Shown here: piece by piece, positions 7,631-63,567 of the stretch
How the letters are laid out: each line of letters starts with the position of its first letter
Position numbering within the stretch: the first letter of the stretch is position 1
Source: a bacterium
Lineage (GTDB): Bacteria; UBA8248
Assembly: GCA_965200245.1 (NCBI GenBank)
Contig: CBDATS010000005.1
Location: 96,001-160,000 of the forward strand
Length of the DNA: 64,000 nucleotides
Direction: 5' to 3'
Program-made: the position numbers and the translations under genes
Notes under the pieces: model-generated
Told to the model about the DNA's origin: nothing
Seen by the model: the letters and a program-made list of their open reading frames with translations, nothing else
The model's database searches: none

Positions 7631-7680
7631 ACGCTCCAGACGTATCCTGCATTCAGTTTCTGCTACGCGCCTCCGGCGCA

Positions 7681-8414: not shown

Positions 8415-8585
8415 TGAAGCCGGACCTGCCTCCTCAACTTTCCCCGACCCCCAAAAAATCGACTTAAGTTTTGGAATATTCTTTTCATTGTATTCTCTTA
8501 ACTTCCATAGGGCAGGAATTCTCCCAAAAGCAAAAGTGAGCGTTCACATACGATCAATGCGTAGAAATCACCTTAAAGGGCATTA

Positions 8586-8759
8586 TTACACATTCTTTTG
8601 TTCTAAAAAAGAATAATTCGTTATTGGCGCCCTTCTTCTTCGAAAATTGTTGATTGCTGGATTTTCGGAAGATTGCTTTTCAATACAAATATCATCTGCA
8701 GGGTTATTTTCTTCCAGTCTCTTGCGAACAATCGCTTCTGTCCTTCTTTCATTCACCAT
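8586..8759 (-). pseudogene. N-terminal remnant resembling BcgI-like/type IIG restriction-modification subunit
   Basis: 57-aa ORF MVNERRTEAIVRKRLEENNPADDICIEKQSSENPAINNF..., RBS AAGGA, AT-rich DNA; similarity recalled, not searched. Confidence 0.4.
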
Positions 8760-8953
8760 TTCCTTACACCCTTGCTATTTTGACTTCCAGGTGGATTTAT
8801 GGCGCAGAAAAACTGCTCTTTTTCTTGAAAGCAGGGTATTTGGAGGGAGGTTAGTTTACTTGCGGCTTGCGGCCCCAGCCTCAATATAACAAGGATTATA
8901 TTTTCCATGCGACCCAGTCATTATTAGCCTCTTTCTCACTTTTCCTCGCAGTG

Positions 8954-9094
8954 CTATCTGGATTCGGCCGCTATACGTGCAGACTCATTCACTGACACGC
9001 TCTTGATATCATGTTGTTCCCACTCACCAGTTGCAACATCCACAACAAACTTGACGGGTTGATTGCCATCAAGTGGCCTTTCGGATTTTTTCAT
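8954..9094 (-). pseudogene. Truncated small basic protein of the RPxDxNQLAKxxVDxATGE type (often beside IS elements)
   Basis: 46-aa ORF MKKSERPLDGNQPVKFVVDVATGEWEQHD... Confidence 0.4.
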
Positions 9095-9813
9095 AGGTTA
9101 CAGTATAATGCTATAAACATTGCATAATACGCAATATTCACAGCAGACGGTTGGCCCCTCCCGGCGAGAGTCTAGCTGCCTCTATGACAGCAACTACTAC
9201 TTGACCTTCCAACTTGCCAGTCTCCACATTCTCAATAATCTTTATGTGGTGGTGGCCACCCAGTGTATAGTATTTGAAAGGCGCGTCTTCTTCCCGCACG
9301 ACCTGGAACAGTTGATCCGGTTTCGGGTTCTCACCGCACAGGCGGCCTTGATCTGCTTTTTTCCTACGCCCTCGCGCGAACGCTCAGGATAGAGCGGTTT
9401 TGCGAACGCGACCTTCGCGTTTCCGCTGCCGTAACTCCCCAGGTGTTCCATATCGAATTCCCGGATTCGGTGGCCAACGATTTTCTCCATTTGTTTCGCC
9501 GTGAGCGATTCGAGGAGGACCCTGTGGGCGCAGACATCCCTTCCTTCATACGAGATGCGTCCATTGGCGTTTTCACCGCAAAAGGCCCCGCTGTTGCAGA
9601 ACGCCGGCCATACACCCTCTCTCCCTGTTCGACTCAATATGTTGAATCATGAAATCAGGGATTGTTCAACGATTTCATCAAGGGGAACATTCCGATCCGT
9701 CGTCCATAGCCATCGGGTACGAAGAGGCTGTATGAGACAGGAATTTCCTGAATTTGAAGACACAAGGGTATCCCGATTTGACAACCGACGCATTCAGGCA
9801 GCCAGTTCAAGAC

Positions 9814-10704
9814 TTATAAATATTTCCTGAACCAGTCGATGGCCTCGACCATACCGATCTCGTGATGATCGGGACTACAGAAATAATAGGACTCGTAATG
9901 CTGCGCACCCGGCAACTTGACGATTTTCTTCGGCTCCCCGCAGGCCTCGTAGCAACTGATTTGCTCCTGTACGGGCACGAGAAAATCGTTTTCCGAATAG
10001 ATAAACAGGACGGGGCGCGGGGCGATTCTGTCGGCCACCCATTCGGGCTTGTAGCGCCAGCAGGCTTCCGCGCTTTGCAAGTCGTAATCCTTCACGTAGT
10101 CGCCGTGCTTTTGGTGGTTCTCCTGGATGACCTTGAGCGTATGAGGGTCGCAAAGCATGATCTCGGGCAGCGGCATGGTGGTCGGCTCGCCTGTGGTGAC
10201 GCGCTTTCGGGCAGCCTCCATAACCGTCTTCTTGAAGGAATCCCACTCGTGCGGTCTTCTTACGGAGCGCATCCAGCGCTCACCCTCATGCACCCCCACC
10301 GAGGAGACCACCACCTTCACCCTCTCGTCGAAAGCCGCCACCCAGATGGCGTTCGCCCCGCCGAAACTCGTACCGTAAATGCCGATTCGATCGGGGGCCA
10401 CGCCTTCGACAGTCTCCATGTAGGAGATGGCGTCGTAGGTGTCCTGCGCCTGCTCAAGGGGCCGCTGGCGACCTCTCTCACCATCACTCTTGCCGAAACC
10501 ACGGTGATCGGGAGCCAGAATGAAATAGCCCTCCTCCCAGAGGCGCCTGGGAACGTCCATTCCGTAGACCTCCTTCATCCCGCTGTAGCCGTGCAGGCAG
10601 ATGATGGCAGGCCTGGGCGGATCCCCCTCGCTCCAGTCTTTCGGGGCATAGAGATGGGCCGCGATTCTGAGGCCGTCGCTGTAGTAAACAATCTCATCGT
10701 ACAT
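9814..10704 (-). CDS. Alpha/beta hydrolase
   Basis: CLHGYSG, DHRGFGKSDG, nucleophile elbow GTSFGG, D (ENDFLVP) and H (AQHY) of the triad. Confidence 0.9.
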   Translation of the reverse strand: MYDEIVYYSDGLRIAAHLYAPKDWSEGDPPRPAIICLHGYSGMKEVYGMDVPRRLWEEGYFILAPDHRGFGKSDGERGRQRPLEQAQDTYDAISYMETVEGVAPDRIGIYGTSFGGANAIWVAAFDERVKVVVSSVGVHEGERWMRSVRRPHEWDSFKKTVMEAARKRVTTGEPTTMPLPEIMLCDPHTLKVIQENHQKHGDYVKDYDLQSAEACWRYKPEWVADRIAPRPVLFIYSENDFLVPVQEQISCYEACGEPKKIVKLPGAQHYESYYFCSPDHHEIGMVEAIDWFRKYL

Positions 10705-10796
10705 GCAGGTTTCCCCTCCAGGCGACGCTGCCGGACGCCGAACGAAAAATGAAATCGGAAAATCTCACTGACGAACCCACCGAAGGATACGTTCCG

Positions 10797-11636
10797 CTAT
10801 TCGGTTTCGATACCCCTCAACTCGCGCAACAGCACTCCGGCGTCTGGCGCGCGCATGAGAGCTTCACCGACCAGGATGGCGTCCACCCCCTCATCCACCA
10901 AGGGAGCCACTTCGCGCCACCCGAAAATCCCGCTCTCCGACACTAGGACGAGCGATTCCCGCTGCTCTGGCGTGAGGCGCCTGAATACCGAGACTGTATG
11001 CCGTGTGTCGACCTCGAAGGTCTTGAGATTGCGGTTGTTGACGCCGAGTATGCGGGTTCCGGTCTCCAGGGCACGACCGAGTTCTTCTTCGACGTACACC
11101 TCCACGAGTGCGTCCATTTCCAGTTCTTCGGCGAGAGAACGTAAGTCCTCCATCTGCGCCGTTTCGAGGATAGCCGCGATCAGCAGGACAGCGTCCGCTC
11201 CGCCCGCGCGCGCTTCCCAAATCTGGTACTCGGTGAAGATGAACTCCTTTCGGAGAACGGGCAGTCCTACCGCGCCACGTACCTGTTCGAGGTGCGCCAT
11301 ATCGCCCAGGAAGCGTCTGCGCTCGGTGAGCACCGAAATGGCTGCCGCGCCGCCCTCCTCATAGGCTCTGGCGATTTCGCCGGGCACGAATCGCTCCGCG
11401 ATCTGTCCCTGGGAGGGAGAGGCCTGCTTCACCTCGGCGATGACGCGCATCCGGCCGCTGGCCGCGTCCTCTTCTGAGTCCGGCCGCTTGAGAGCGCCTG
11501 CGAACTCCACCGCCGGCGGCATGTCGCGGGCCCGTGACTTTACGTCGGCTTCCGAGTGTTTTCTCTTGTCCGAGGCGATGTCCTCGCGGACGCCTTCCAC
11601 GAGTCTGTCCATAACGGTGTGCGTCGCAATCGTCAA
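10797..11636 (-). CDS. trpC: Indole-3-glycerol phosphate synthase
   Basis: IAEVKQASPSQG, ISVLTE, GVNNRNL, VSESGI, LVGEALMR; TTG start with GGGAG RBS assumed. Confidence 0.96.
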   Translation of the reverse strand: MTIATHTVMDRLVEGVREDIASDKRKHSEADVKSRARDMPPAVEFAGALKRPDSEEDAASGRMRVIAEVKQASPSQGQIAERFVPGEIARAYEEGGAAAISVLTERRRFLGDMAHLEQVRGAVGLPVLRKEFIFTEYQIWEARAGGADAVLLIAAILETAQMEDLRSLAEELEMDALVEVYVEEELGRALETGTRILGVNNRNLKTFEVDTRHTVSVFRRLTPEQRESLVLVSESGIFGWREVAPLVDEGVDAILVGEALMRAPDAGVLLRELRGIETE

Positions 11637-11695
11637 AATTCTTACTCCCGGCAGGTATCGACAACCTATAGGCGAGCAAAGCCACGCCATCTCGC

Positions 11696-12706
11696 TCAGG
11701 AATTGGATATCTCCACGAGACACTTGAGGACGCTTTCCGCCTCGCCCGAATCTATCACCGAGGCCGCCCGCGCAACTCCCTCGCTCAAATCCCCCGCCTT
11801 GCCCGCGGCGATGAGCGCGGCACCGGCGTTCAAGAGTACGATGTCACGCTTGGGGCCTTTCTCTCCCGCAAGGATGGCGCGCGTAATCTCCGCATTCTCC
11901 TCAGGCTCGCCCCCCTTGAGAGTGTCTGCGCCTGCGCGAACCAGACCCGCGTCCTCGGGCGTGACATCGTATGTCCTGATCTCCTTCCCGTCCCATTCCG
12001 ATACTCGCGAGGATCCGGTGAGCGTCAACTCGTCCATGCCGTCCGATCCGTGTACCACCAGTGCCTTCTGACAGCCCACCTGGCGCAGCACATCCGCCAC
12101 CAATTCTGTGAGTTCGGGCGCATATACGCCCACCAACTGGCTCTGGGCGCGCGCGGGGTTCGTGAGAGGCCCCATGACGTTGAAGATGCTGCGCATGGCG
12201 ATCTCGCGCCTGGGACCAATGGCGTGCTTCATCGCGCCGTGGAGCATCGGTGCGAACAGAAAGCCCACGCCCGCCTCGTCAATGCACTCACCCACCTTTT
12301 CGGGCGAAGCCTCGATGTTCACCCCCAGCGCCTTCAGCACGTCGGCGGCTCCCGATTTGCTCGATACCGCCCGGTTACCGTGCTTCGCCACGGGCTGACC
12401 CGCCGCTGCCACGACGAGGGCGGCGCTCGTGCTGATGTTGAAGGTCCGGGCGCCGTCGCCGCCTGTGCCCACCACGTCGATGACAAAAGGATGCTTTGTC
12501 TTCACCCACGTCGCCTTGGCGCGCATGGAGCGGACACTGCCCGCGATCTCCTCGGGAGTCTCTCCCGCCATGCGAAGCGCCACCAGATAGGCGCCAATCT
12601 GGGCAGGCGTGGCCTCGCCCGTCATAATGAGGTCCATCACCTTCTCCGCTTCATCCGCGCTCAAGTGACGGCCTTCCACGAGCTTTCCGATGGCTCCCTG
12701 AATCAT
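11696..12706 (-). CDS. trpD: Anthranilate phosphoribosyltransferase
   Basis: GTGGDG, FNIST, KHGNRAVSSKSG, GPLTNP, DGMDE. Confidence 0.97.
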   Translation of the reverse strand: MIQGAIGKLVEGRHLSADEAEKVMDLIMTGEATPAQIGAYLVALRMAGETPEEIAGSVRSMRAKATWVKTKHPFVIDVVGTGGDGARTFNISTSAALVVAAAGQPVAKHGNRAVSSKSGAADVLKALGVNIEASPEKVGECIDEAGVGFLFAPMLHGAMKHAIGPRREIAMRSIFNVMGPLTNPARAQSQLVGVYAPELTELVADVLRQVGCQKALVVHGSDGMDELTLTGSSRVSEWDGKEIRTYDVTPEDAGLVRAGADTLKGGEPEENAEITRAILAGEKGPKRDIVLLNAGAALIAAGKAGDLSEGVARAASVIDSGEAESVLKCLVEISNS

Positions 12707-12845
12707 GAACGCAAATCCTCATAATGTGGTGGAATCTTCACTTGCTCCCACAACCATGCGGCCCAGGGCAACTGCCGCCTGTCCCAGGTCATGTGCTCGA
12801 TTTTCGCAAATCCAAGGCTACAATACCGCTTCTGCCCGCATTTCC

Positions 12846-13430
12846 TCAAGGCCGTTCGATGGCGCCGTCAAGCGCATTCTGCAGCAGTGCCTTCCCCTCT
12901 GCCGAGAGGATCGACTCGGGATGAAACTGAACACCGGCGACCGCCTTGTCCCGGATGCGCAGTCCCATAATTTCGCCCTCATCCGTTTCCGCGCACACCT
13001 CGATACCGGAAGGCACATTCTCGCGCGCGAGCAGAAGGCTGTGGTAACGCGTGGCCACCATCGGATTCGGGAGGCCCCGAAACACGCCCTTTTCATCATG
13101 GTGTATCTCGGATGTTTTTCCGTGCATGATTCTCCCTGCACGAACGATACTCCCGCCGAAGACCGTAGCGATGGCCTGATGCCCCAGACACACGCCCAGA
13201 ATGGGATACTTTCCCGCAAATCTCTCGACGAGCGGTATCGAGAGACCGGCGGATTCCGGCCGACCCGGCCCGGGGGATATGACGATCATACCAGGCGCGA
13301 ATTCGGCCACGTCGTCGAGTTCGAACTGATCGTTTCGCCACACCGTCACCTCCGCTCCGAGTTCGGCCAGATACTGAACGAGGTTGTAGGTGAACGAATC
13401 GTAATTATCGATCATCAATATGCGTTTCAT
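12846..13430 (-). CDS. trpG: Anthranilate synthase glutamine amidotransferase subunit
   Basis: MIDNYDSFTYNL, SPGPG, GVCLGHQ, RYHSL, QFHPES; ATGA overlap with trpE stop. Confidence 0.96.
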   Translation of the reverse strand: MKRILMIDNYDSFTYNLVQYLAELGAEVTVWRNDQFELDDVAEFAPGMIVISPGPGRPESAGLSIPLVERFAGKYPILGVCLGHQAIATVFGGSIVRAGRIMHGKTSEIHHDEKGVFRGLPNPMVATRYHSLLLARENVPSGIEVCAETDEGEIMGLRIRDKAVAGVQFHPESILSAEGKALLQNALDGAIERP

Positions 13431-14965
13431 ATTACGTTCCCCGGTCTGCGGGAGTCGCCCCGCGCCACGTCGAGGGCACGGAGGGAGCCACGGGCCTTGT
13501 TGATGGTTTCCTCGTATTCGAAATCGGGTTTCGAGTCCGCTACGACACCCGCTCCCACCTGGAGGTAGAGCTTTCCTCCCCGCGTGAAGAGCGTGCGGAT
13601 GGCGATGCAGGTGTCCATGCTTCCGCCGAACCCGAAATACCCCACCGCACCCGCATAGGGGCCCCGGCGCACCGGTTCCATCTCGTCGATAATCTCCATC
13701 GCGCGCACCTTGGGCGCGCCCGAGACAGTGCCCGCCGGAAAAGAGGCCCGCAACACGTCGAACGCATCCTTTCCCTCGGCCAGCTTTCCCACCACATTGC
13801 TCACGATGTGCATGACGTGAGAATAGCGCTCGATCATCATCTGTTCGGTGACCCGCACCGTGCCGCGCTCGCAAACGCGGCCGAGGTCGTTGCGGCCGAG
13901 GTCGACTAGCATGATATGCTCTGCCCGCTCCTTCTCGTCCGCCAGCAATTCTTTCCCCAGGGCCCGATCTTCCGTCTCGTCCTCACCGCGCCTGCGTGTG
14001 CCCGCGATGGGCCGCACTTCGACTTTCTCCCCATCGAGCCGCACGAGCACCTCCGGAGATGCCCCCACAAGAGTCACCTCGCCGAGTTCGAGATAGAACA
14101 TGTAGGGAGAGGGATTGACCGTCCGAAGTACCCGGTAGATGGAAAATGGATGCACATCCAGTGCACTTTCAAGACGCTGGGAGAGAACGACCTGAATCGC
14201 CTCGCCCGCATGGATGAGTTCCACCGTATCGGCGACGGCCTTCTCGAATCCCTCGCGCGAAAAAGACGAGTAAAGGCCTGGCATGTTCTCGACGGGGTGC
14301 CCGTTTCCACCCTCGGAAGGCGTTTCCGGGGGTTCATCCGGCGGAGCGACGGAGGGGCCTTTCAGTTTTTCGATGAGTGCATCGACGCGCACGCACGCAC
14401 TTTCGTAGGCGGCCTCGGGGCCGTCGTCACGAACGTGAGCATGGGCGAGGACGTACATTTTCTGGGCCATGTTGTCGAAGATGACCAGCGACTTCGTGAT
14501 CATGAAAAGCAGTTCGGGCAATTCGAGATCGTCATGCGCATTCTCGGGCAGACGTTCGATGAAGCGAACCGCGTCATAACCCATGTAGCCGATGGCCCCT
14601 CCCCAGAACCTCGGGAGACCGGGAAGGTCAACGGGTATGTAGGGTTGTATCAGACGCCTGAGTGCGTCAATGGGATCATCGACGGCGAATTCTTCGCTCT
14701 CCCCGTCCTGCGTGACACGCACCCTCCTCCCCTTGCTCTCGAAAATGAGGTGAGGCTCGCTGCCCAAAAAGGTATATCTCGCCCATTTCTCTCCGCCCTC
14801 GACGCTTTCGAGCAAGAACGAATGGGAACCGTCCGCAACTTTCAGATAGGCCGATACCGGCGTATCGAGATCGGCGAGAATTTCGCGGTAGACCGGAATG
14901 ATGTTGCCCCGCTCGCAAAGAGCGAGGAAAGTTTCTTTGTCCGGTGCATGATTTTCTGAGTTCAT
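13427..14965 (-). CDS. trpE: Anthranilate synthase component I
   Basis: LLESVEG, NPSPYM, PIAGT, EHIMLVDLGRND, PAGTVSGAPK. Confidence 0.97.
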   Translation of the reverse strand: MNSENHAPDKETFLALCERGNIIPVYREILADLDTPVSAYLKVADGSHSFLLESVEGGEKWARYTFLGSEPHLIFESKGRRVRVTQDGESEEFAVDDPIDALRRLIQPYIPVDLPGLPRFWGGAIGYMGYDAVRFIERLPENAHDDLELPELLFMITKSLVIFDNMAQKMYVLAHAHVRDDGPEAAYESACVRVDALIEKLKGPSVAPPDEPPETPSEGGNGHPVENMPGLYSSFSREGFEKAVADTVELIHAGEAIQVVLSQRLESALDVHPFSIYRVLRTVNPSPYMFYLELGEVTLVGASPEVLVRLDGEKVEVRPIAGTRRRGEDETEDRALGKELLADEKERAEHIMLVDLGRNDLGRVCERGTVRVTEQMMIERYSHVMHIVSNVVGKLAEGKDAFDVLRASFPAGTVSGAPKVRAMEIIDEMEPVRRGPYAGAVGYFGFGGSMDTCIAIRTLFTRGGKLYLQVGAGVVADSKPDFEYEETINKARGSLRALDVARGDSRRPGNVI

Positions 14966-15010
14966 TTCTCCTCGAGAGTTCGCCTTGCAGGCGACGCCTC
15001 GCCTCCAAAG

Positions 15011-15045
15011 AAAAAAGCCACGGGACCGGGTGGGCCACCATGGCT
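15011..15045 (-). terminator. trp attenuator terminator
   Basis: AGCCAUGG...CCGUGGCU stem followed by a U tract, 46 nt before trpE. Confidence 0.8.
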
Positions 15046-15081
15046 ATAGAGTTTCATTCCAAAAGATTCCGACTACAACCC

Positions 15082-15153
15082 TTATGGCACACCTCCAGAA
15101 TTGGCGGGGCATCGCCAGGGCCAAGCCTCCCTGCATGTTTCATGCTTACTCAT
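15082..15153 (-). CDS. trpL: trp operon leader peptide
   Basis: MSKHETCREAWPWRCPANSGGVP* with W-P-W, upstream GGGGA, followed by antiterminator/terminator segments. Confidence 0.75.
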   Translation of the reverse strand: MSKHETCREAWPWRCPANSGGVP

Positions 15154-15220
15154 TCGCTGCTATCCCCATATACGCAGAGTCCGCTACTCAGTTGAAGATA
15201 CTCAAATTCCGGAGAAATGG

Positions 15221-16024
15221 TCAAGCGTCGATTTCTTCGGGTCCCGGAGTGGCTTCCGGCGGGAGTTGCTCTCCATAGTCCACACAAACCAGCGCAAGCC
15301 CCTGGGGAGGCGCGTTGACGCCCGCGAGCGTTCTGCTTTTCCCCGCGAGCACCTCTCGCACGGACTCGGCTTTGCGACCCCCGTGTCCCACCTCCACCAG
15401 GACGCCGGTCAGGTTCCTCACCATGTGGCGCAGAAAACCTTCTGCCGTCGCCTCGATGATCACCTCATCGCCGACGCGATCCACATTCAGGCGTTCGAGG
15501 CGGCGCACCGTGTTTTCGGGTCTTCCCTTCTCCCGACAGAAGCTCGCGAAATCATGCTCGCCTTCAAGTATTTCCGCCGCGAGGCACATCGCTCCTACAT
15601 CGAGGCGTTTCCGGACATGCCAAGTATACGAGCGGCGAATGGCACTTGGCGAGCGGCGATTCAGGATTCGGTAGCGGTAGGTCTTTCGAACAGCGTCAAA
15701 CTGGGCATGAAAACCGCTGGCGGTCTCCCGGCAATCGAAGATCGAGATGTCGCGGTCCATCATGGTGTTAAGACCTATCCGGACCTTGTAGGGTTCGATT
15801 GCAGAGCGCGTGCAGAAATGCGCCACCTGCCCCCATGCGTGGACACCCGCATCGGTGCGGCCCGAACCGATGACGCGTATCGGTTCTCCGCACATCTTCG
15901 CGAGAGCGCCTTCTATTTCGCTCTGGACGGTTCTCTGACCGGGCTGAGTCTGCCACCCGTGAAAGTTCGTGCCCTCGTATTCTATCCAGAGGACAAGGCA
16001 GCGTGTCTTTACGGCGTTCATCAC
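15221..16024 (-). CDS. truA: tRNA pseudouridine(38-40) synthase
   Basis: YEGTNFHGWQ, GRTDAGVHA, HDFASF, FLRHMVR. Confidence 0.97.
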   Translation of the reverse strand: MMNAVKTRCLVLWIEYEGTNFHGWQTQPGQRTVQSEIEGALAKMCGEPIRVIGSGRTDAGVHAWGQVAHFCTRSAIEPYKVRIGLNTMMDRDISIFDCRETASGFHAQFDAVRKTYRYRILNRRSPSAIRRSYTWHVRKRLDVGAMCLAAEILEGEHDFASFCREKGRPENTVRRLERLNVDRVGDEVIIEATAEGFLRHMVRNLTGVLVEVGHGGRKAESVREVLAGKSRTLAGVNAPPQGLALVCVDYGEQLPPEATPGPEEIDA

Positions 16025-16031
16025 GAAGAGG

Positions 16032-18896
<2,865 letters not shown>

Positions 18897-56518: not shown

Positions 56519-57683
56519 TCAGGTTTTTCGCACCACTTCCGTGAGCCTGCGCCGATCCGGTCCGGACGGCCTGAGCAACCTGCCTCCCAGCACCACGTGC
56601 GTTGCCTCCAGCATCCTCTGTCCCGTGCGCCGTTCTCACATGGCATCCTCGAAAGCAAACCGACCCTCACGCATCCGGAATACGGCGACATCGCCCCGCG
56701 CGCCTTTTCGGAGCGTCCCCACTTCGCCTTTCAAGCCAATCCATTCCGCCGCCGTCTGCGTGCTGAGCCGCACCACCTCTGCAAGGGGGAAGCCCAGGGC
56801 CAGGAACTTGCTCATAAGACTCGGGAAATCACACACAGGGCCATTGATGCAATGCGTATGGAGGTCTGTGCTGAGATTTCCCGGCATGAGGCCCTGTTCC
56901 ATGGCGCGTTCCATGATCTCGAAACTGAAGCTCGAACGCCCGTGGGCAACGTCGAGTAACACCCCTGAGTCTCTCGCCTCCTACACCGCGCGGCGCACCC
57001 GACCCCGTGCGTCGAGTATGTTTTCCCTGCGACCGTGAAACGCATGCGTCAGAACGTCGCCCGGGCGGAGGCGTTTGAGGATGCTGGGCAAAGAAGTGGG
57101 CGTATCACCCACATGGACCATGAGAGGGACTTTCAGGAATTCCGCCGCCTCGAGTGCCGCATCCAGCGGCTTCGATCCGCTGCGTTCCACCACGTTGTTG
57201 CTCAGGCGCACCTTCATGCCAATCAGGTATTTTCGATGCTTTTGGTAGCACTCCACTGCCCTGTCCACGCGCAGTGCGCGCATATCGATGTTCTCGCCAA
57301 GGCCGTCTATCAGGAGTCCGCCTTCCGAGATGTTGAGATACGCGCGCACCGTCGGACGCGCCTTCTCCAGGAACCACTCCTGAAAACCGGGATATGTCTG
57401 TGCGCCTGCGCTGCCCGTATCGACCGCAGTCGTGACGCCGCGCGACAGCATGGCGGCCTCGAGGTTCACCCCGTAGTGCGTAATGCCCTCGTAAAAATGG
57501 CAATGGAGGTCAACCAGGCCGGGTGTTACAACTTTTCCCCGTGCGTTGAGCGTCTGCCTGCCCCCCCGGTTCGATGTGGGGATCCACCCGCCGCACACGA
57601 CCCTGTGCTATCTCGACATCCATCGTCCCTTCCAGACCTTGGGAGGGATCGAGCACGTATCCACCGCGAATCACGAGGTCCAT
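56519..57683 (-). pseudogene. Amidohydrolase/deacetylase (dihydroorotase-like) pseudogene
   Basis: MDLVIRGG..LDP, DLHCH, MVHVG, THAFHG, DVAHG, STDLH; frameshift at G7 (57561-57567), in-frame TAG at 56981 and TGA at 56636. Confidence 0.88.
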
Positions 57684-57815
57684 ACACTGGCCTCCTACAA
57701 TGAAACCGGGTGCGAACCTACAGGTTCAGCAAGAACCGGAGCAAAAAAAGTAGCTTCGGGGAATTATTCCCCCCAGAAGCGATGAGACGCAATCGGCCGT
57801 GGAACTGGCTTCGAA

Positions 57816-58360
57816 ATGATTCAAATGCAAACATCATCCATTAGGAACGCACCAGCGCAGGCATCTGGAGCATCTCCCGGGAAAATCCATGCAAATCGAA
57901 ACGGGGAACTTGTCTGGCCGATACCCGTGGACAAGACAAACAAGATGGGCTGGAACGTCTCGAAAAAACGGAAAACATCGCAAATTCGAAGGGCGCCGCA
58001 GACAACGGGATGGCCCGTGGATTCGAGAGACACCGAAGCCGGACATCAAAAACCCGTATCGTGAGAAGGGTTGGCCGAGACCCTTGATCGCATCGCCACA
58101 CAGCGAAATCCGTACGAAATTCTGCACACGGAGAAGACAATACACGCTCCCACAAAACTGCCGACTCAAAAACCGAAGCGGCAGACAGGAACAGGATTGA
58201 CAGGTTGGCGAACCGCGATGCACAGGGAGAAACAAGGGTCTGCAATGTTACGAATAACGTGTTCAGAATACGCTGGGGCGATTACCGGGTTCTGTACGCT
58301 CTCTGCAACGGTTTCAGAATACCCATTCCCGACATCGAGAATAGAGGGGTGTCTATAGCC
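57816..58360 (+). pseudogene. Decayed antitoxin + RelE/ParE toxin pair
   Basis: VFRIRWGDYRVLY (58260-58298) and DIENRG are RelE-like; upstream RNGELVWPIPVD and KPVS*EGLAETL resemble an antitoxin. Confidence 0.6.
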
Positions 58361-58655
58361 TATAGAAGAACAGACCCCTGAGAAGAATGTTCACCTCATC
58401 TTTCATCCACTTCTTGAAAATCTGCGTCCTATCCTCCAATATGCCATGAAAATCTTGCATCAATCTTTCTCCGAAGTGAAAGAGAAGGAAATGACCCGCG
58501 GAAATGGGTATTGCGGGTGGAATGCTTCCGTTCCGGGAAAACCGGTAACCCCGAAGAGGGCGGCTGATCAACATGTCCAAAACCGATTTTTCACATGGCT
58601 TTCCCAAGCCTGCCTGTCCAGTTCCCCTGCAAAATCAAACCACCGGAGTCAAGAA

Positions 58656-59828
58656 ATGAGCCTGCAAACAGAAACTCAACTGCAATTCGATCTCGACGAA
58701 ACGCAAAAGATGCTTCGCCAGACGGTGCGCGAACTCTCGGAGCGCTACATCGCCCCGCGCGCCGCCGACATCGACGAGTACGAGGAATACCCCGAGGACA
58801 TCTACCAACTCCAGAAAGAACACGGCCTGCTCGGCATCTTCTTCCCCGAGGAATACGGGGGTGGCGGCATGGGCTTTCTGGGTGGCTGCGTCGCCATTGA
58901 GGAAATCGCGCGCGTTTGCTCGAATTCGCCGCTGTTCATCGTGCTCAACATGCTCTCAAGCCGCGTCATCGATCTGAGCGGAACGCAGGAGCAGAAAGAC
59001 CACTACATGGCGGGCCTCGCGAAAGGAGAACTCAGAGGTTCCTACGCGCTCACCGAACCCCACGCGGGATCGGATGCGGGCAACATCCGCACGCGCGCCG
59101 TCAAGGAGGGCGACGAATGGGTCATCAACGGCACCAAGTGCTTCTGCACGGGACCCGACAAGGCGGATTTCATCACCGTCGCCGCCAAGACCGACGCCCA
59201 TGCGGGCACGCGCGGTATCACCTATTACATCGTGCCCACAGATTCGCCGGGCTTCAGCATCGCCAAGCACGAACGCAAGATGGGGATGCGGGGTATCGCG
59301 ACCTGCATGCTCAACCTCGACAACGTGGCCGTCCCGCTTGAGAACCAGGTGGGCGAATTGAACGGGGGCTTCAAGACCGCGATGATCGGCTTCAACCAGA
59401 TGCGGCCGGCCATCGGATCGCGCGCGGTAGGTCTGGCACAGGGTTGCCTCGACTACGCGTCCAACTACGCCAAGGAACGTGAGGCTTTCGGCAAGCCCAT
59501 CGCCCAGCATCAGGCCGTGCAGTTCATGCTTGCGGACATGTTCATGGACATCGAGGCAGCGAGGCTGCTCGTCTACCGCGCGGCTGCTCTTGTGGACGCG
59601 GGCCAAATCGGCAAGGAGAATGCCCGGTATTTCTCGACGGCCAAGACCTACGCGGCCGACATGGCGATGAAGTGCGCGATAGACAGCATCCAGGTTCTTG
59701 GCGGGGCAGGCTACATGAAGGATCACCCACTCGAGCGTTTCATGCGCGACGCCAAGCAGATCCAAATCGTCGAGGGAACGAGCCAGATTCAGCGGATGAT
59801 CATCGCCCGGAACCTGCTCGGCCTCTAG
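58656..59828 (+). CDS. Acyl-CoA dehydrogenase (paralog 1)
   Basis: ALTEPHAGSD, NGTKCF, KMGMRG, REAFGKPI, GGAGY, IVEGTSQIQR. Confidence 0.95.
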   Translation: MSLQTETQLQFDLDETQKMLRQTVRELSERYIAPRAADIDEYEEYPEDIYQLQKEHGLLGIFFPEEYGGGGMGFLGGCVAIEEIARVCSNSPLFIVLNMLSSRVIDLSGTQEQKDHYMAGLAKGELRGSYALTEPHAGSDAGNIRTRAVKEGDEWVINGTKCFCTGPDKADFITVAAKTDAHAGTRGITYYIVPTDSPGFSIAKHERKMGMRGIATCMLNLDNVAVPLENQVGELNGGFKTAMIGFNQMRPAIGSRAVGLAQGCLDYASNYAKEREAFGKPIAQHQAVQFMLADMFMDIEAARLLVYRAAALVDAGQIGKENARYFSTAKTYAADMAMKCAIDSIQVLGGAGYMKDHPLERFMRDAKQIQIVEGTSQIQRMIIARNLLGL

Positions 59829-59840
59829 GAGCGGGCTGAG

Positions 59841-61007
59841 GTGAAGGGAAGCCAGAATCCTGCAGGCACGTTCGAACTCTCCCCGGCCCAGCGGATGCTG
59901 GCCGATACGATCTATGAATTGAGCCGCCGACACATCGCACCGCGTGCCGGTGAGACGGACGAGAACAACGAATACCCGGAAGACGTCTTCGCACTTCTCA
60001 AATCCCACGATCTGCTCGGCCTCTACATCCCGGAAACCTACGGCGGGGCGGGCCTGGGAATTCTGGAAACCTGCGTCGCCATCGAGCAGATGGCGCGTTT
60101 TTGCTCGAACTCCCCTCTTTTCTTCTCCGTCCACTTGCTCGCCACGCGGCCCGTCGCCATCGGCGGAAGCGAGGTGCAAATGCACACCTATCTCGGCGGT
60201 GTAGCCCGTGGCGAATTACGGCCCGCCTTTTCGCTCACCGAGCCGAACGCAGGTTCCGACGCTGCGAACATATCCACACGCGCCGAACGTGACGGGGATT
60301 CGTGGGTCATCAACGGCCAGAAATGCTATTGCACGGGGGCGAGCGTGGCGGACTTCATCACCGTAGCGGCGAAGACCGAACCCGACAAAGGGGCAAGGGG
60401 CATCTCCTTCTTCAACGTTCCCAAGGGCGGGTTTCGCGTGGGACGTCATGAGCGGAAGATGGGAATGCGGGGTATTCCGACGTGTGAGGTCTTTCTCCAA
60501 AACTCGCGCGTACCTCTTGAGAACATGATCGGTGAACGAGGCCAGGGTTTCAAGACCGCCATGCTCGGCTTCAACCAGGCGCGACCCGCCATAGGTGCGC
60601 GCGGAGTGGGTCTGGCACAGGGGTGTCTCGATTACGCCTCGAACTACGCGAAGGAGCGCGAGGCATTCGGCAAGTCCATCGCACAGCACCAGGCCGTGCA
60701 GTTCATGCTCGCCGACATGTTCATGGAAACCGAGGCGGCCCGTATGCTCGTTTACCGTGCCGCCGCCATGGTGGATAATGGGCGTTACCGGAAAGAAGAT
60801 GTGCATTTCATCTGCGCCGCGAAATGCTACGCCACCGATGTCGCCATGAAGGTCGCCGTGGATGGCGTTCAGGTGCTCGGCGGCGCGGGCTACATGAAGG
60901 ACCACCCGATCGAGCGGTTCATGAGAGACGCCAAGCAGTTGCAGATTATCGAGGGGACCAACCAGATTCAGCGCATGGTCATCGCTCAAAATTTACTGGA
61001 ATTATAG
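59841..61007 (+). CDS. Acyl-CoA dehydrogenase (paralog 2)
   Basis: SLTEPNAGSD, NGQKCY, KMGMRG, GGAGY, IIEGTNQIQR; GTG start. Confidence 0.95.
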   Translation: MKGSQNPAGTFELSPAQRMLADTIYELSRRHIAPRAGETDENNEYPEDVFALLKSHDLLGLYIPETYGGAGLGILETCVAIEQMARFCSNSPLFFSVHLLATRPVAIGGSEVQMHTYLGGVARGELRPAFSLTEPNAGSDAANISTRAERDGDSWVINGQKCYCTGASVADFITVAAKTEPDKGARGISFFNVPKGGFRVGRHERKMGMRGIPTCEVFLQNSRVPLENMIGERGQGFKTAMLGFNQARPAIGARGVGLAQGCLDYASNYAKEREAFGKSIAQHQAVQFMLADMFMETEAARMLVYRAAAMVDNGRYRKEDVHFICAAKCYATDVAMKVAVDGVQVLGGAGYMKDHPIERFMRDAKQLQIIEGTNQIQRMVIAQNLLEL

Positions 61008-61034
61008 TTCAAGTCCCTCGTCACGGAGACCGAA

Positions 61035-61643
61035 ATGAGCCAGATGATTGAAATCCTGCAACCCACCTCCTTCATTCGCGCGGGCGATCACCCCCTGGCG
61101 GAGCGGCCCGAAGATCTGGGCGGACTTACAATCGGCTTCTTCCACAACAACAAGCCCAACGCCGACGTTCTACTCGAACGGATCGAGGAGCTTTTCGCAA
61201 AAGAAGACGAGACGCTGCGCTTCGTGCGCTGGGGAAAGCCAAACCCCACCCTGCCCGAAGATCGGATTGAGGAATTCATCGAACAGGTGGATGTGGCCGT
61301 CTGCGCGGTGGGTGACTGAGGGAGTTGTACGTCATGGAGTATCCATGACTCGGTGGAGATGGAAAAAGCAGGCATTCCGACGGCCACGTTTTGTTCCAGT
61401 GAATTCTCGGCCCTGGGGGCAAACGAGAGAACGGCCCTGGGGATGCCTGGCCTCCCGATAGTCGTCGTGATGCATCCGGTGGGAGGCATAGCACCGGGAG
61501 AGGCGCGCGCTTTGGGCGATGGTGCGGTGGAGGAGATTCGGCACATCCTCACGAGCGACGCCGAGACTCTCAGGAAAGAATACAGAGCGCGCGAATACGT
61601 CCCGCCCCGAAAGGCGGTGCGCCACAAGACCCTCTTCGGATAG
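61035..61643 (+). CDS. UGSC-family selenoprotein (Sec at UGA 61317-61319), 202 aa
   Basis: Two in-frame ORFs joined by TGA read AVGD-U-GSCTSWSIHD (UxxC); NNKPNAD and HPVGG motifs; SECIS hairpin follows. Confidence 0.9.
61320..61349 (+). promoter_or_regulatory. Bacterial SECIS element
   Basis: Perfect 8-bp stem GUCAUGGA/UCCAUGAC with GUA loop, starting 11 nt after the UGA. Confidence 0.82.
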
Positions 61644-61656
61644 GCGGGCTTCCGAT

Positions 61657-62736
61657 ATGAGCGACCATTCTCAGGAAAATCTTGCGTTCGGGAGCGAGCG
61701 GGTGAAGGTGCGCGACACGCCCGAGGCGATGGCGCGACTACTTGAGGCGAGAGGCTGGGGCGACGGCCTTCCCGCTGTTCCCCCCACGCCCGATCGCGTC
61801 GCCCGGATGGTGGAGGGCGCAGGCCTCGCGCCTGATGAAGAAATCGGGCTCATGCCCCCTCGCCAGGGCGTCATCACGGTGAAAGCCCTCGCCGTGAACG
61901 CCGTGATGGCAGGCTGTCTACCGGCATACATGCCCGTTCTGTTGGCGGCAGCCCGCGCGGTGCTCGAACCCGGGTTCTCGCTCCACGCCATTCAGGCGAC
62001 GACCCACCCCGTAGCACCCCTCATCATCGTGAACGGCCCCGTGGTCGAAGAAATCGGCCTGAACGCCGAATATGGATGCTTCGCCCCCGGCAACCGGGCG
62101 AACGCGACGATTGGCCGTGCGATGCGCCTGACGCTTCTGAACATCGGCGGTGCGAGCCCCGGCATCCTGGACCGCGCCACACAGGGGTCGCCCGCCAAAT
62201 ACGCATTCTGCATCGCCGAGAACGAGGCCGCCTCCCCTTGGGAACCCCTCCACGTCGAGCGCGGTTTTCCGCCAGAGGAGAGCACCGTGACGCTCGTGGG
62301 CTGCGAGGGACCTCACAACATCAACGATCACGTGAGCCACACGGCAGAGGGAATTCTCGCCACCGCTGCCGACACCATGTCCGTCATGGGGTGCAACAAT
62401 TTCTATCTTCGTGGCGAACCCGTTCTCGCCCTCGGACCCGAGCACGCAGCAACCATCGCAGGAGACGGCCTTGCGAAGGCGGACGTAAAGCGGAGAATCT
62501 TCCAGCTCGCCCGTAAGCCTGTGCGGCAACTGAAGCGTGGCGCCATGTGGGGAATGCAGACCTGGGATGAGAAAATAGCGAACAACGAGGGCGACGATGA
62601 TTTCGAGATTCCCCTTCTCGACAGGCCCGAGGACCTGCTCCTCATCATCGCGGGCGGCGCCGGCAAACACTCCTGCTGCATGCCCACTTTCGGACCAACG
62701 CGCTCGGTGACGCGAAAGATCGAAGTCGCAGGATGA
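61657..62736 (+). CDS. Conserved UGSC-associated protein of unknown function
   Basis: GWGDGLPAVPPT..RV..M, NAVMAGC.P.YMPV, QATTHP, NRANATIGRA, CIAENE..SPW.PLHVERG; 13 nt after the selenoprotein. Confidence 0.8.
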   Translation: MSDHSQENLAFGSERVKVRDTPEAMARLLEARGWGDGLPAVPPTPDRVARMVEGAGLAPDEEIGLMPPRQGVITVKALAVNAVMAGCLPAYMPVLLAAARAVLEPGFSLHAIQATTHPVAPLIIVNGPVVEEIGLNAEYGCFAPGNRANATIGRAMRLTLLNIGGASPGILDRATQGSPAKYAFCIAENEAASPWEPLHVERGFPPEESTVTLVGCEGPHNINDHVSHTAEGILATAADTMSVMGCNNFYLRGEPVLALGPEHAATIAGDGLAKADVKRRIFQLARKPVRQLKRGAMWGMQTWDEKIANNEGDDDFEIPLLDRPEDLLLIIAGGAGKHSCCMPTFGPTRSVTRKIEVAG

Positions 62737-63228
62737 TGGTCATGTTTTCATCAACTGTATTCTTGAACCCGACCAGTCCGAGCGGTAGCCCGTTGACGAA
62801 CAAGACAATATCCGGAAGGCGTTTCTGTTTGTTATCGACGACGGTGAACTGATTGACCGCCAGCCAGTCGTTGTTTGCGGGGCCGTCGAAATCCACAGCG
62901 CAGGCCGACACGTCGCGGACCGCGTCGTTATCGTCACGGTGTTCAACCGTGATCCCATGATGAGCATCCGGTGGAACGAGCGGTTACGAACCTCCAGCGT
63001 CGTCCCTTCCGGGCGCGTCAATTGGCCGAACACATCCTGATGGGCGGAGGCGGCAGAACAGGATTGAGGTGGGCCATTTCATCGCAAGGCGTCCTTCAAG
63101 AATCACGTCGCTATAATCAGCACGCTCCGCGCGCAGCACATCGGGGCAACACCGACATCGTGGGTGATATTCCAGCCGAGGTTCTCAAGCCATTCGAGCA
63201 GGATGATTTCAACGTCGGATCCGGTTAA
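62737..63228 (-). pseudogene. hsdR: Type I restriction HsdR N-terminal remnant
   Basis: Frame-broken pieces LTGSDVE...WLENLGW, AERADYSDVILEGRL, RNRSFHRML, NNDWLAVNQFTV...PDIVLFVNGLPL. Confidence 0.85.
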
Positions 63229-63229
63229 G

Positions 63230-63286
63230 CGGCGCGCCCTTGGTCAACTCCGAGACAACGTTGGCGTCGCGGAAATATCCACTCAT
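63230..63286 (-). pseudogene. VapC/PIN toxin, first about 19 codons only
   Basis: MSGYFRDANVVSELTKGAP, ATGA-coupled to the antitoxin stop. Confidence 0.7.
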
Positions 63287-63567
63287 TCGGACTCGTCGTC
63301 CGTGAACGGGATTTCCCTACCGGAACTTCTCGTACCCGGGCTCTCCAGATTCACCCCACGCGGCATGTTCTCGACCAGCCATCGTCCCATCGATTTACGG
63401 GGCGGTCTTTTCCAATACCACTCCCCGGCGGACACGACCACAAAAGGTCGCCTCATCCCGATATGTTGGGGCCCCTCCTCCTCTGCGAGGCGCAACACTG
63501 CGGACAGACGCGCCTTGGCCTCCGCAACGGTCCATACTCGATGGGGCCTAGAATGCCGTTCCGCCAT
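63283..63567 (-). CDS. Phd/YefM-family antitoxin
   Basis: WTVAEAKARLSAVL..A..EGPQ.I....VVVS..EW; RBS GAGGGG. Confidence 0.85.
   Translation of the reverse strand: MAERHSRPHRVWTVAEAKARLSAVLRLAEEEGPQHIGMRRPFVVVSAGEWYWKRPPRKSMGRWLVENMPRGVNLESPGTRSSGREIPFTDDESE

What the first reader, a model, noticed from the sequence alone, without database searches (positions are those of the whole stretch)
58656..62736. Four-gene operon: paired acyl-CoA dehydrogenases + UxxC selenoprotein + uncharacterised partner protein
Seen: four co-oriented genes with gaps of 12, 27 and 13 nt, intact although flanked on both sides by decayed DNA. Known: UGSC selenoproteins are a family with no assigned biochemical function that I know of, and I recall them occurring beside the GDGLPxxPPT partner family; ACADs normally pass electrons to ETF, which is not encoded here. 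Inference: a selenium-dependent redox module in which the Sec/Cys pair and the Cys-rich partner act on, or take electrons from, an unusual (possibly sulfur-containing) acyl-CoA handled by the ACAD pair. This would give the UGSC family a pathway context.
Basis: partly seen in the sequence, partly recalled or inferred. Interest (0 to 1): 0.85.

Follow-up and report, generated by a model that had tools for sequence, protein, structure and literature searches.

The report
UGSC selenoprotein pair beside acyl-CoA dehydrogenases
A selenium-containing protein of unknown function and its usual partner protein sit here in one gene cluster with two ordinary acyl-CoA dehydrogenases, but that neighbourhood is a habit of one bacterial family, not a general clue to what the selenium protein does.

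Summary
There are four co-oriented genes with gaps of 12, 27 and 13 nt: two canonical acyl-CoA dehydrogenases (ACADs, 64% identical), a UGSC-family selenoprotein (in-frame TGA, conserved SECIS-like hairpin, selA/selB/tRNA-Sec in the genome), and a 359-aa protein of no Pfam or NCBIfam family. Both flanks are decayed.

The conserved unit is UGSC plus partner, not the ACADs. All 7 UGSC genes of this genome lie within 3 kb of a partner gene, and most of 80 foreign loci carry both. At least 15 foreign cases are fused. That fusion was printed in 2008 as "UGSC/Unknown_1".

ACAD-UGSC-partner is conserved only within this bacterial family, inside a wholly syntenic region. Congeners lose the parts independently: one keeps both ACADs but lacks UGSC and partner, and two have lost ACAD2. 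Among the 80 foreign loci, an ACAD is the immediate same-strand neighbour in 1.

A looser link to CoA-ester enzymes is real: 4 of 10 blocks in this genome against 0.56 expected. Family III CoA-transferases are enriched next to foreign loci.

Partner homologues are often fused to thioredoxin-reductase-like flavoproteins, so electrons probably come from NAD(P)H, not from an ACAD.

This scan has found the UGSC-partner pair many times on other DNA, including this same operon.

The parts
58656..59828 (+). ACAD1, a 390-aa acyl-CoA dehydrogenase of the short/medium-chain type
   Evidence: Pfam Acyl-CoA_dh_N, _M and _1 all match. The best solved relatives are generic ACADs at E 6e-103. The C-terminal ...IVEGTSQIQ motif is read directly. 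No NCBIfam equivalog cut-off is reached.
59841..61007 (+). ACAD2, a 388-aa tandem paralogue of ACAD1 (64% identity), GTG start
   Evidence: It is reduced to remnants in congeners G006 and G008 and broken in G002.
61035..61643 (+). UGSC-family selenoprotein, 202 aa with Sec95 and Cys98
   Evidence: The model has pLDDT 91.8 and a flavodoxin-like alpha/beta fold, with U at the N-terminus of helix 96-111.
61317..61319 (+). In-frame TGA read as selenocysteine
   Evidence: TGA is at the same position in 14 of 14 orthologues and in 55 of 55 complete foreign UGSC genes. An RNA-library contig identical to the window spans it (X1 record 5).
61331..61349 (+). SECIS-like hairpin: 8-bp stem, 3-nt loop
   Evidence: It is kept in 15 of 15 orthologues with one compensatory pair.
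61657..62736 (+). Partner protein, 359 aa, the 'Unknown_1' family. Invariant residues are D36-G-L-P..P43-T, A85-G-C87, G127-P, G153-R, E188, W195, G203 and G333.
   Evidence: No Pfam or NCBIfam match. The model has pLDDT 91 and no convincing solved-fold match. The family has 5570 representatives at 50% identity with E up to 0.001.
56525..57683 (-). Upstream flank: amidohydrolase pseudogene, not part of the operon
   Evidence: It is intact in congeners.
62645..62911 (-). Downstream flank: HsdR N-terminal fragment inside a scrambled copy of a region of contig C4
   Evidence: Congeners have TetR, RidA, an unknown gene, MoxR and CobT-like genes here. In this genome four of these lie on contig C2, and no TetR match above 60% identity was found.

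Best explanation
The four genes form a real cluster, probably co-transcribed. Its functional core is a two-part selenoenzyme. One part is the UGSC protein, which carries a Sec95-x-x-Cys98 redox centre on a flavodoxin-like fold. That centre is remotely similar to the Sec region of selenoprotein B of the glycine, sarcosine, betaine and proline reductases. The other part is the 359-aa partner, which has no solved-fold relative and one invariant Cys (C87) at a helix start. Inferred mechanism: reducing equivalents arrive from NAD(P)H through a thioredoxin-reductase or thioredoxin-type disulfide relay. They pass to the partner Cys and the UGSC selenenylsulfide, which reduce or reductively cleave a small organic acid bound by the partner. 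The many paralogues (13 partner genes in this genome) would each serve a different substrate. The two ACADs are ordinary ETF-linked dehydrogenases. In this bacterial family one ACAD came to lie directly upstream, and it was duplicated in this genus. If the link is functional, it is a shared catabolic route: the acid made or needed by UGSC-partner is handled as a CoA ester. It is not an electron exchange, and it is dispensable. Shown: gene structure, Sec decoding signals, the UGSC-partner pairing and fusion, lineage-restricted ACAD linkage, independent loss, and TrxR fusions in homologues. Inferred: reductase chemistry, substrate class and direction of the pathway.
For: Pairing. All 7 UGSC genes of this genome lie within 3 kb of a partner gene (6 directly adjacent), and one is a fusion. 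In 80 foreign loci found with the partner, 55 of 55 complete UGSC genes carry TGA. 12 are fused in frame, and 3 further 463-471-aa forms are also fusions. 38 of the best 150 family representatives carry a UGSC domain. The 2008 GOS paper prints the fusion as UGSC/Unknown_1, with the MAGC and DGLPxxPPT motifs in its supplement (passages and supplement text seen). Redox supply. 30 of 44 homologues of 630 aa or more carry thioredoxin-reductase-type domains. Single cases are fused to a Redoxin/thioredoxin-like domain and to the ferredoxin-thioredoxin reductase catalytic chain. Selenoprotein B likeness. 21 of 34 UGSC members hit TIGR01917 below threshold (best 1.5e-5). 10 hit GrdF, 10 hit GrdH and 4 hit PrdB, always at the Sec region. 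ACAD link is local. The operon is found in 18 of 18 congeners by DNA search. A single ACAD plus UGSC plus partner is found in 6 of 6 orthologous loci of three other genera of the family. The partner tree puts these in one clade of 6 rows with support 100. CoA context. See for this genome. In foreign loci, CoA-transferase III density is 4.0 per 100 kb within 1 kb against 0.5-1.4 further out. ETF is elsewhere in the genome. Expression hint. RNA-library contigs from one study, identical to the window, cover parts of all four genes. They bridge ACAD1/ACAD2 (X3 record 14) and UGSC/partner (X1 record 6, X4 record 19).
Against: No biochemical datum exists for any member. Papers found with the term UGSC list it as uncharacterised. 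The selenoprotein B likeness is sub-threshold: 16.7 bits against a cut-off of 602 for this protein. A profile comparison with this genome's own GRDB-family protein was not significant. The partner shows no likeness to GrdE or PrdA: 0 of 40 members gave any recurrent NCBIfam hit. No TrxR or Trx gene lies in this operon. In my 80 loci a TrxR-like gene was the immediate neighbour only once (L034). The family-level conservation of ACAD-UGSC-partner cannot be told from plain synteny, because DAHP synthase and the downstream genes are conserved too. The RNA contigs are short and shallow, come from one study, and DNA carry-over is not excluded.
Confidence: 0.55

Rival explanations
1. One reading: the ACAD pair and the Sec/Cys module form one redox machine. 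UGSC-partner accepts electrons from, or acts on, an unusual and possibly sulfur-containing acyl-CoA processed by the ACADs, in place of ETF.
For: The spacing is tight, at 12, 27 and 13 nt. The order ACAD-UGSC-partner is kept in four genera. ACAD adjacency arose at least three times on the partner tree: the window clade, L086, and the L055/L071 clade. A second locus of this genome has UGSC-ECH-ECH-unknown-ACAD.
Against: An ACAD is the immediate same-strand neighbour in 1 of 80 foreign loci. One congener keeps both ACADs intact with UGSC and partner cleanly absent, and two have lost ACAD2. Both ACADs keep the ...EGT... motif at the place of the catalytic glutamate (sequence; the motif is recalled). 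ETF is encoded in the genome. Desulfinase, SfnB and DszC models are far below cut-off. Homologues of the partner are fused to NAD(P)H-dependent TrxR-like flavoproteins, not to ACAD or ETF.
Confidence: 0.07
2. The ACADs and UGSC-partner are functionally unrelated neighbours. They were inherited together as part of a syntenic block and perhaps share a transcript by accident.
For: The whole region from DAHP synthase to the CobT-like gene is syntenic across the family. The parts are lost independently. The ACAD1 orthologue of another family in the same order (68% identity) has no UGSC or partner on its 6.8-kb contig. The frequency of same-strand ACADs within 3 kb of foreign partner genes (3 of about 100) is what the ACAD density of this genome would give by chance (about 2.5%, my estimate).
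Against: In this genome CoA-ester enzymes are enriched beside UGSC/partner blocks (P about 0.001). Family III CoA-transferases sit directly beside the pair in L024, L031, L034, L039, L055 and in two loci of this genome. The intergenic gaps are very short. One homologue is fused to an AMP-binding (acyl-CoA synthetase type) domain.
Confidence: 0.25
3. UGSC-partner is not a net reductase. It is an isomerase, racemase or lyase that uses Sec95 and partner Cys87 as an acid/base or nucleophile pair on a carboxylate or CoA ester.
For: There is one invariant Cys in the partner and one Sec in UGSC. The weak fold echoes of the partner are to MmgE/PrpD-type proteins, iminodisuccinate epimerase, class I fumarase, serine dehydratase and CyuA, all at Z 3.5-4.5. 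Most loci have no reductase gene beside them.
Against: The U-x-x-C spacing is nearly invariant (Cys98 is invariant in 34 of 34 aligned UGSC members), as expected of a selenenylsulfide redox centre. TrxR-like, thioredoxin-like and FTR fusions recur. All fold matches are below the level at which unrelated folds score.
Confidence: 0.12

Closest known systems
UGSC-containing selenoprotein family (Pfam PF24696, NCBIfam NF041046) and its 'UGSC/Unknown_1' fusion (Zhang and Gladyshev 2008, PMC2398784)
   Same: The window's protein passes both curated cut-offs and has the U-G-S-C motif. Its neighbour carries the MAGC and DGLPxxPPT motifs of Unknown_1, as printed in that paper's supplement.
   Different: Here the two are separate genes, and an ACAD pair precedes them. 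The papers I read in passages give no function and no operon context. They suggest a thioredoxin-like fold, whereas the model here is flavodoxin-like.
Selenoprotein B of glycine/sarcosine/betaine reductase (GrdB, GrdF, GrdH) and D-proline reductase PrdB
   Same: Both have a U-x-x-C selenocysteine centre. There is recurrent sub-threshold similarity at the Sec region, in 21 of 34 UGSC members. Both are two-subunit enzymes. Electron supply through a thioredoxin-type system is suggested by the fusions; that the Grd system works this way is recalled.
   Different: No curated cut-off is met. The partner shows no similarity to the pyruvoyl proproteins GrdE or PrdA. No GrdA, GrdC or GrdD genes were seen beside any locus annotated here. 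The hosts are mostly aerobic or environmental lineages rather than amino-acid-fermenting clostridia (titles; the clostridial habit is recalled).
Acyl-CoA catabolic gene sets that combine an ACAD, a family III CoA-transferase and an enoyl-CoA hydratase (for example CaiA/CaiB/CaiD of carnitine metabolism; recalled)
   Same: The three families that recur beside UGSC/partner blocks are exactly ACAD, CoA_transf_3 and ECH.
   Different: ACAD1 and ACAD2 score 179 and 163 bits on the crotonobetainyl-CoA dehydrogenase model, against a cut-off of 540. The window has no CoA-transferase or hydratase. These families are also simply abundant in these genomes: 26, 19 and 17 copies here.
Short/medium-chain acyl-CoA dehydrogenases that reduce ETF (SCAD, MCAD, bacterial butyryl-CoA dehydrogenase)
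   Same: All three domains are present. The best solved relatives score E 1e-84 to 6e-103. The C-terminal EGT motif is present. ETF is in the genome.
   Different: The substrate is unknown. The best NCBIfam models are acryloyl-CoA reductase (390 and 356 bits, cut-off 640) and cyclohexane-1-carbonyl-CoA dehydrogenase (367 and 339 bits, cut-off 650), both not met.

Membership tests
UGSC family (seleno)protein (PF24696 / NF041046) | Profile score above the curated cut-off | tested here: met
   159.4 bits against 25 (Pfam); 136.5 bits against 125 (NCBIfam).
UGSC family (seleno)protein (PF24696 / NF041046) | U-G-S-C motif with Sec encoded by an in-frame TGA | tested here: met
   GD-U-G-S-C-TS at residues 93-100. 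TGA is at the same place in 14 of 14 orthologues and 55 of 55 foreign genes.
UGSC family (seleno)protein (PF24696 / NF041046) | Means to decode Sec: a SECIS-like hairpin after the TGA, plus selA, selB and tRNA-Sec | tested here: met
   Hairpin at 61331-61349 with one compensatory pair in 15 sequences. selA scores 572.7 bits, selB 391.9 bits, and tRNA-SeC was found.
UGSC/Unknown_1 pair | A partner gene adjacent to or fused with UGSC, carrying the DGLPxxPPT and MAGC motifs | tested here: met
   The gap is 13 nt. The motifs are invariant in 40 sequences. The same motifs appear in the 2008 supplement.
Acyl-CoA dehydrogenase (PF02771, PF02770, PF00441) | All three domains present, with a glutamate at the catalytic-base position near the C-terminus | tested here: met
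   Domains. IVEGTSQ in ACAD1 and IIEGTNQ in ACAD2 are read. The assignment of that Glu as the base is recalled from MCAD/SCAD and was not tested.
3-sulfinopropanoyl-CoA desulfinase (NF042439), as a test of the 'sulfur-containing acyl-CoA' idea | Equivalog score above the cut-off | tested here: not met
   280.3 and 282.9 bits against 600. SfnB scores 92 and 89 bits against 431. DszC scores 63 and 36 bits against 850.
Selenoprotein B (GrdB/GrdF/GrdH/PrdB; TIGR01917, TIGR01918, PF07355) | Profile score above the cut-off | tested here: not met
   16.7 bits against 602. PF07355 gave no hit for any of 34 members. Sub-threshold hits are recurrent, in 21 of 34 members.
Selenoprotein B (GrdB/GrdF/GrdH/PrdB; TIGR01917, TIGR01918, PF07355) | A companion pyruvoyl proprotein (GrdE or PrdA type) | tested here: inconclusive
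   0 of 40 partner members gave a recurrent NCBIfam match, and no fold match was found. Sequence and fold searches cannot exclude a very distant relation.
Selenoprotein B (GrdB/GrdF/GrdH/PrdB; TIGR01917, TIGR01918, PF07355) | Reduction by a thioredoxin system | not testable with these tools
   The only hint is indirect: 30 of 44 long partner homologues are fused to TrxR-like domains. No such gene is in this operon.

The most novel reading that the evidence does not exclude
UGSC plus partner is a large, substrate-diverse family of split, selenoprotein-B-like reductases driven by NAD(P)H through thioredoxin-reductase-type relays. They cleave or reduce a bond next to the carboxyl group of small organic acids, such as betaines, amino-acid derivatives or other substituted acids. 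The products are then activated by family III CoA-transferases and degraded by ACAD/hydratase steps. The window's clade would be a member specialised to feed a short/medium-chain ACAD. That would make this family's four-gene operon a defined entry point for finding the first substrate of an abundant orphan selenoprotein.
Probability: 0.2. Interest if true: 0.8.

Novelty: new variant of a known kind. Interest (0 to 1): 0.4.

Why it matters
[quoted passage not shown] A 2026 review still lists it without a function (passages seen). Its partner is a very large family: 5570 representatives at 50% identity with E up to 0.001. It has no Pfam model and no solved-fold relative.

This locus does not give the family a general pathway context. 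The ACAD linkage is confined to one bacterial family and is dispensable. It does add two usable leads:
- A measurable, if modest, association with CoA-ester enzymes, above all family III CoA-transferases.
- Natural variants within one genus (with and without UGSC-partner, with one or two ACADs) that could be compared for growth substrates.

Together with the TrxR fusions, this narrows the experiment to an NADPH/TrxR-driven reductase assay on small acids whose products are CoA-activated.

Tried and rejected
- **Complex prediction.** The alignments held proteins that are not letter-for-letter table-11 products, including the Sec read-through.
- **Solved structures by sequence.** Nothing useful came back for the partner (best E 0.85) or for UGSC (best E 0.051).
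- **Fold search of the partner.** The best Foldseek match was E 1.2e-3, TM 0.23 (class I fumarate hydratase). The best VIA-align score was Z 5.8 over 91 residues. That is below the level that unrelated folds reach, so no fold assignment was made.
- **Fold search of UGSC.** It returned many flavodoxin-like proteins at TM 0.4-0.5. This gives a fold class only, with no functional relative.
- **Profile comparison with this genome's GRDB-family protein.** Both UGSC and the partner were compared with C5:577348-578382, and neither comparison was significant.
- **Promoter and terminator scan of 57600-63300.** It found no more sites than shuffles and none at gene junctions. This is uninformative.
- **SECIS fold energy.** The 65-nt stretch has z -0.63, which is not significant on its own. 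The case rests on conservation and the compensatory pair.
- **RNA contigs.** No contig lay on 57600-58540, on most of ACAD2, or on 62375-62950. With short, shallow contigs this shows nothing.
- **First ORF caller.** My first greedy caller picked wrong-strand ORFs. I replaced it with a codon-usage scorer, which still missed a CoA-transferase in L012. That was corrected.
- **Immediate-neighbour census.** Its start-codon rule missed the CoA-transferase after UGSC in L055, which is seen. About half of its 131 ORFs had no Pfam match, and many may be spurious.
- **Thioredoxin fusions in my own loci.** I looked among five long partner ORFs. Three were UGSC fusions and two had no Pfam match.

Full report
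**1. What is in the window**

Four + strand genes sit at the stated coordinates with gaps of 12, 27 and 13 nt.
- ACAD1 (58656-59828) and ACAD2 (59841-61007) each have the three acyl-CoA dehydrogenase domains. They are 64% identical.
- The third frame (61035-61643) is open only if the TGA at 61317-61319 is read through. It then gives a 202-aa protein with the motif GD-U-G-S-C. That protein passes the curated cut-offs of Pfam UGSC (159.4 against 25 bits) and NCBIfam NF041046 (136.5 against 125 bits).
- The fourth gene (61657-62736) encodes 359 aa and matches no Pfam or NCBIfam family.

**2. Evidence that the TGA is selenocysteine**

An 8-bp hairpin begins 11 nt after the TGA. In 15 orthologous sequences it is fully kept. 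One pair switches between A-U (8 sequences) and G-C (7 sequences) through two synonymous third-position changes.

The genome encodes selA (572.7 bits), selB (391.9 bits) and a tRNA-SeC. It holds seven UGSC genes, each with exactly one in-frame TGA.

**3. The flanks**

Upstream lies an amidohydrolase that is intact at 388-390 aa in several congeners. Here it has an in-frame TAG, an in-frame TGA and a frameshift. About 960 nt with no credible ORF follow it, and that stretch has no second copy in the genome.

Downstream lie an 88-aa HsdR N-terminal fragment and a scrambled 72-86% copy of C4:42.3-46.3 kb. Congeners have TetR, RidA, an unknown gene, a MoxR-type ATPase and a CobT-like gene at this place. 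In this genome four of those lie on contig C2, and no TetR match above 60% identity was found.

**4. The conserved unit is UGSC plus partner**

This genome has 13 partner paralogues and 26 ACADs.
- All 7 UGSC genes lie within 3 kb of a partner gene, and 6 are directly adjacent.
- One is a UGSC-partner fusion (574-aa open frame).
- In one locus, four tandem partner genes lie 2.6 kb from the UGSC gene.

A scan of one genome per species with the partner alignment returned 565 confirmed stretches. I examined the best 80 loci, which span many phyla.
- Most have UGSC directly beside the partner, in either order.
- Of 55 UGSC genes that lie complete on the + strand, 55 have TGA at the U position and 12 run on in frame into the partner.
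- Three further 463-471-aa forms are also fusions.

Reading every protein of a 1.84-billion-protein library gave 5570 partner relatives at E up to 0.001. Among the best 150, 58 have an N-terminal extension. 38 of those 58 carry a UGSC domain, 16 whole and 22 only the part after the Sec codon.

The fusion is in print. The 2008 GOS paper names a "UGSC/Unknown_1" fusion (passages). Its Figure S1 and sequence supplement show the MAGC and DGLPxxPPT motifs (supplement text). Reviews of 2022 and 2026 still list the family as uncharacterised (passages). Two full-text searches for UGSC terms found 9 and 8 papers, none with a function in its title or abstract. I read passages of three of them.

This scan has noted the pair on other DNA many times: 407 findings. 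One follow-up covered this same two-ACAD operon in another genome and reached the same verdict (e1-707780).

**5. Is the ACAD linkage recurrent?**

Within the lineage, yes.
- A DNA search found the cluster in 18 of 18 congeneric species. It was full length in 10, and cut by contig ends or split into pieces in the rest.
- In three other genera of the same family, 6 of 6 orthologous loci have a single ACAD (75-80% identical to ACAD1), then UGSC, then the partner. The tandem ACAD pair is therefore a duplication of this genus.
- On a tree of 114 partner sequences, the 6 orthologous rows included (the window, one congener and four loci of the other genera) form one clade with support 100. Its sisters, from Binatota, Pseudomonadota and Actinomycetota, have no ACAD.

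Three things weaken this as evidence of function.
- The whole region is syntenic in these genera, including a divergent DAHP synthase and the downstream genes.
- The parts are lost independently in congeners. G009 (99% complete) keeps ACAD1 and ACAD2 intact but goes straight on to RidA, with UGSC, partner and TetR absent. G006 and G008 keep ACAD1-UGSC-partner but have only remnants of ACAD2. G015 has a decayed partner beside two intact ACADs.
- The ACAD1 orthologue of another family in the same order (68% identity) has no UGSC or partner on its 6.8-kb contig.

Outside the family, the answer is no.
- An ACAD lies within 10 kb in 8 of the 80 foreign loci. It is on the same strand within 2.5 kb in 3.
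- In a census of the nearest same-strand ORFs (131 scanned), an ACAD appeared once (L086). CoA-transferase III appeared 4 times, enoyl-CoA hydratase once, and TctC receptors 10 times in 6 betaproteobacterial loci. The remainder was a wide mix: solute-binding proteins, NHL-repeat proteins, amidases, asparaginases, DUF6282, TatD-like hydrolases, a TrxR-like protein, LarA, P450 and others.
- Unbiased clustering of all ORFs within 4 kb in 89 loci gave no dominant neighbour: TctC 13 loci, SDR 12, luciferase-like monooxygenase 10, hydratase 10, CoA-transferase III 9, an unknown family 9, ACAD 8.

**6. A looser link to CoA-ester metabolism**

In this genome the contexts are:
- ACAD-ACAD-UGSC-partner (the window);
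- UGSC-hydratase-hydratase-unknown-ACAD;
- CoA-transferase-hydratase-UGSC-partner;
- partner-UGSC-CoA-transferase;
- an orphan partner directly after a CitE/HpcH-type lyase;
- four further loci with no adjacent CoA-ester enzyme.

Four of 10 blocks have a same-strand ACAD, hydratase or CoA-transferase III within 2.5 kb. Random placement gives 0.56 (P about 0.001, 5000 trials). For ACAD alone the figures are 2 of 10 against 0.27 (P about 0.03).

In foreign loci the density of CoA-transferase III genes is 4.0 per 100 kb within 1 kb of the pair and 0.5-1.4 further out. For ACAD it is 0.6 and 2.3 in the two nearest bins and 0-0.4 beyond. One partner clade (8 rows, support 100) holds partner-UGSC-CoA-transferase operons from Alpha- and Betaproteobacteria and from this genome. 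These families are abundant in such genomes, so the enrichment is modest.

**7. What the proteins look like**

The partner model is confident (pLDDT 91, pTM 0.90), but no solved fold matches it convincingly. Seventeen columns are invariant across 40 sequences. They include DGLP..PT and AGC87, where C87 lies between two helices.

The UGSC model (pLDDT 91.8) is a flavodoxin-like alpha/beta sandwich. Sec95 sits at the start of helix 96-111, after strand 87-93.

UGSC members repeatedly hit selenoprotein B models below threshold, at the Sec region: TIGR01917 in 21 of 34, GrdF 10, GrdH 10, TIGR01918 9, PrdB 4. The partner gives nothing (0 of 40). Profile comparisons with this genome's own GRDB-family protein were not significant.

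**8. Where the electrons probably come from**

Of 44 partner homologues of 630 aa or more (E up to 1e-20), 30 carry thioredoxin-reductase-type domains. Several are named thioredoxin reductase by their source. Single representatives are fused to a Redoxin/thioredoxin-like domain and to the catalytic chain of ferredoxin-thioredoxin reductase. One is fused to an AMP-binding domain.

This points to a dithiol/selenol relay fed by NAD(P)H, not by an ACAD. ETF, the usual ACAD acceptor, is encoded elsewhere in the genome.

The ACADs match generic short/medium-chain enzymes. They reach no equivalog cut-off. In particular, 3-sulfinopropanoyl-CoA desulfinase scores 280 and 283 bits against a cut-off of 600.

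**9. Expression**

Four metatranscriptome runs from one study hold contigs identical to the window. The contigs lie on parts of all four genes. They bridge ACAD1/ACAD2 (X3 record 14) and UGSC/partner (X1 record 6, X4 record 19), and they span the TGA (X1 record 5). They are short and shallow. DNA carry-over is not excluded, and contigs cannot show a single transcript.

**10. Verdict**

- UGSC and the partner are a genuine, already printed pair, probably a TrxR-driven two-part selenoenzyme acting on small acids.
- CoA-ester enzymes are modestly enriched around such pairs.
- The ACAD pair is a lineage-specific and dispensable neighbour. There is no sign of electron exchange or of sulfur chemistry.

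Noticed in passing
L008 (G000:C4:1218001-1238000), about 5740-16700: Four tandem partner paralogues lie upstream of a divergent molybdopterin xanthine-dehydrogenase-like gene. UGSC-hydratase-hydratase-unknown-ACAD follows on the minus strand. A foreign locus (L047) has a similar layout: three partner genes, then UGSC-hydratase about 4 kb on.
   Followed up: partly
L009 (G000:C4:1238001-1256000), 1744-10233, minus strand: A UGSC-partner fusion is followed by a second partner gene, a PF12831 FAD-dependent oxidoreductase and a sugar-type ABC transporter. This context has no CoA enzymes.
   Followed up: no
G000:C5:577348-578382; C8:244993-245391; C4:784599-785138; C4:1532214-1532600: The genome also holds a full-length GRDB-family (PF07355) protein without an in-frame stop, and three short proteins that match only the C-terminal third of that model.
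   Followed up: partly
L159 (G009:C10:244001-262000), 8224-10691: A congener keeps both ACADs but lacks UGSC, partner and TetR. ACAD2 abuts the RidA gene directly, so this is a clean natural deletion.
   Followed up: yes
L113 (G008) 9111-9409; L160 (G006) 7979-8266: ACAD2 is reduced to short N- and C-terminal remnants in two congeners, while ACAD1, UGSC and partner remain.
   Followed up: yes
L025 (contig titled Candidatus Nitrosocosmicus sp., an archaeal MAG), 9363-10987: This locus holds a TGA-containing UGSC gene and a partner whose nearest relative on the tree is from a Dormiibacterota MAG (branch lengths 0.12-0.13). The contig may be misbinned, or the pair may have been transferred.
   Followed up: no
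L037, 1948-3870: A selB gene (selenocysteine-specific elongation factor) lies directly downstream of a UGSC-partner pair.
   Followed up: no
G000:C2:1892-2125 and G000:C15:3714-3947: Two ETF-alpha matches have identical scores and lie near contig ends. This may be one region assembled twice.
   Followed up: no
window 57690-58650: About 960 nt between the amidohydrolase pseudogene and ACAD1 have no credible ORF and no second copy in the genome. Congeners have only about 180 nt here.
   Followed up: partly
P0255, P0309, P0154 (partner homologues): Single partner homologues are fused to the ferredoxin-thioredoxin reductase catalytic chain, to a Redoxin/AhpC-like domain, and to an AMP-binding (acyl-adenylate forming) domain.
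   Followed up: no
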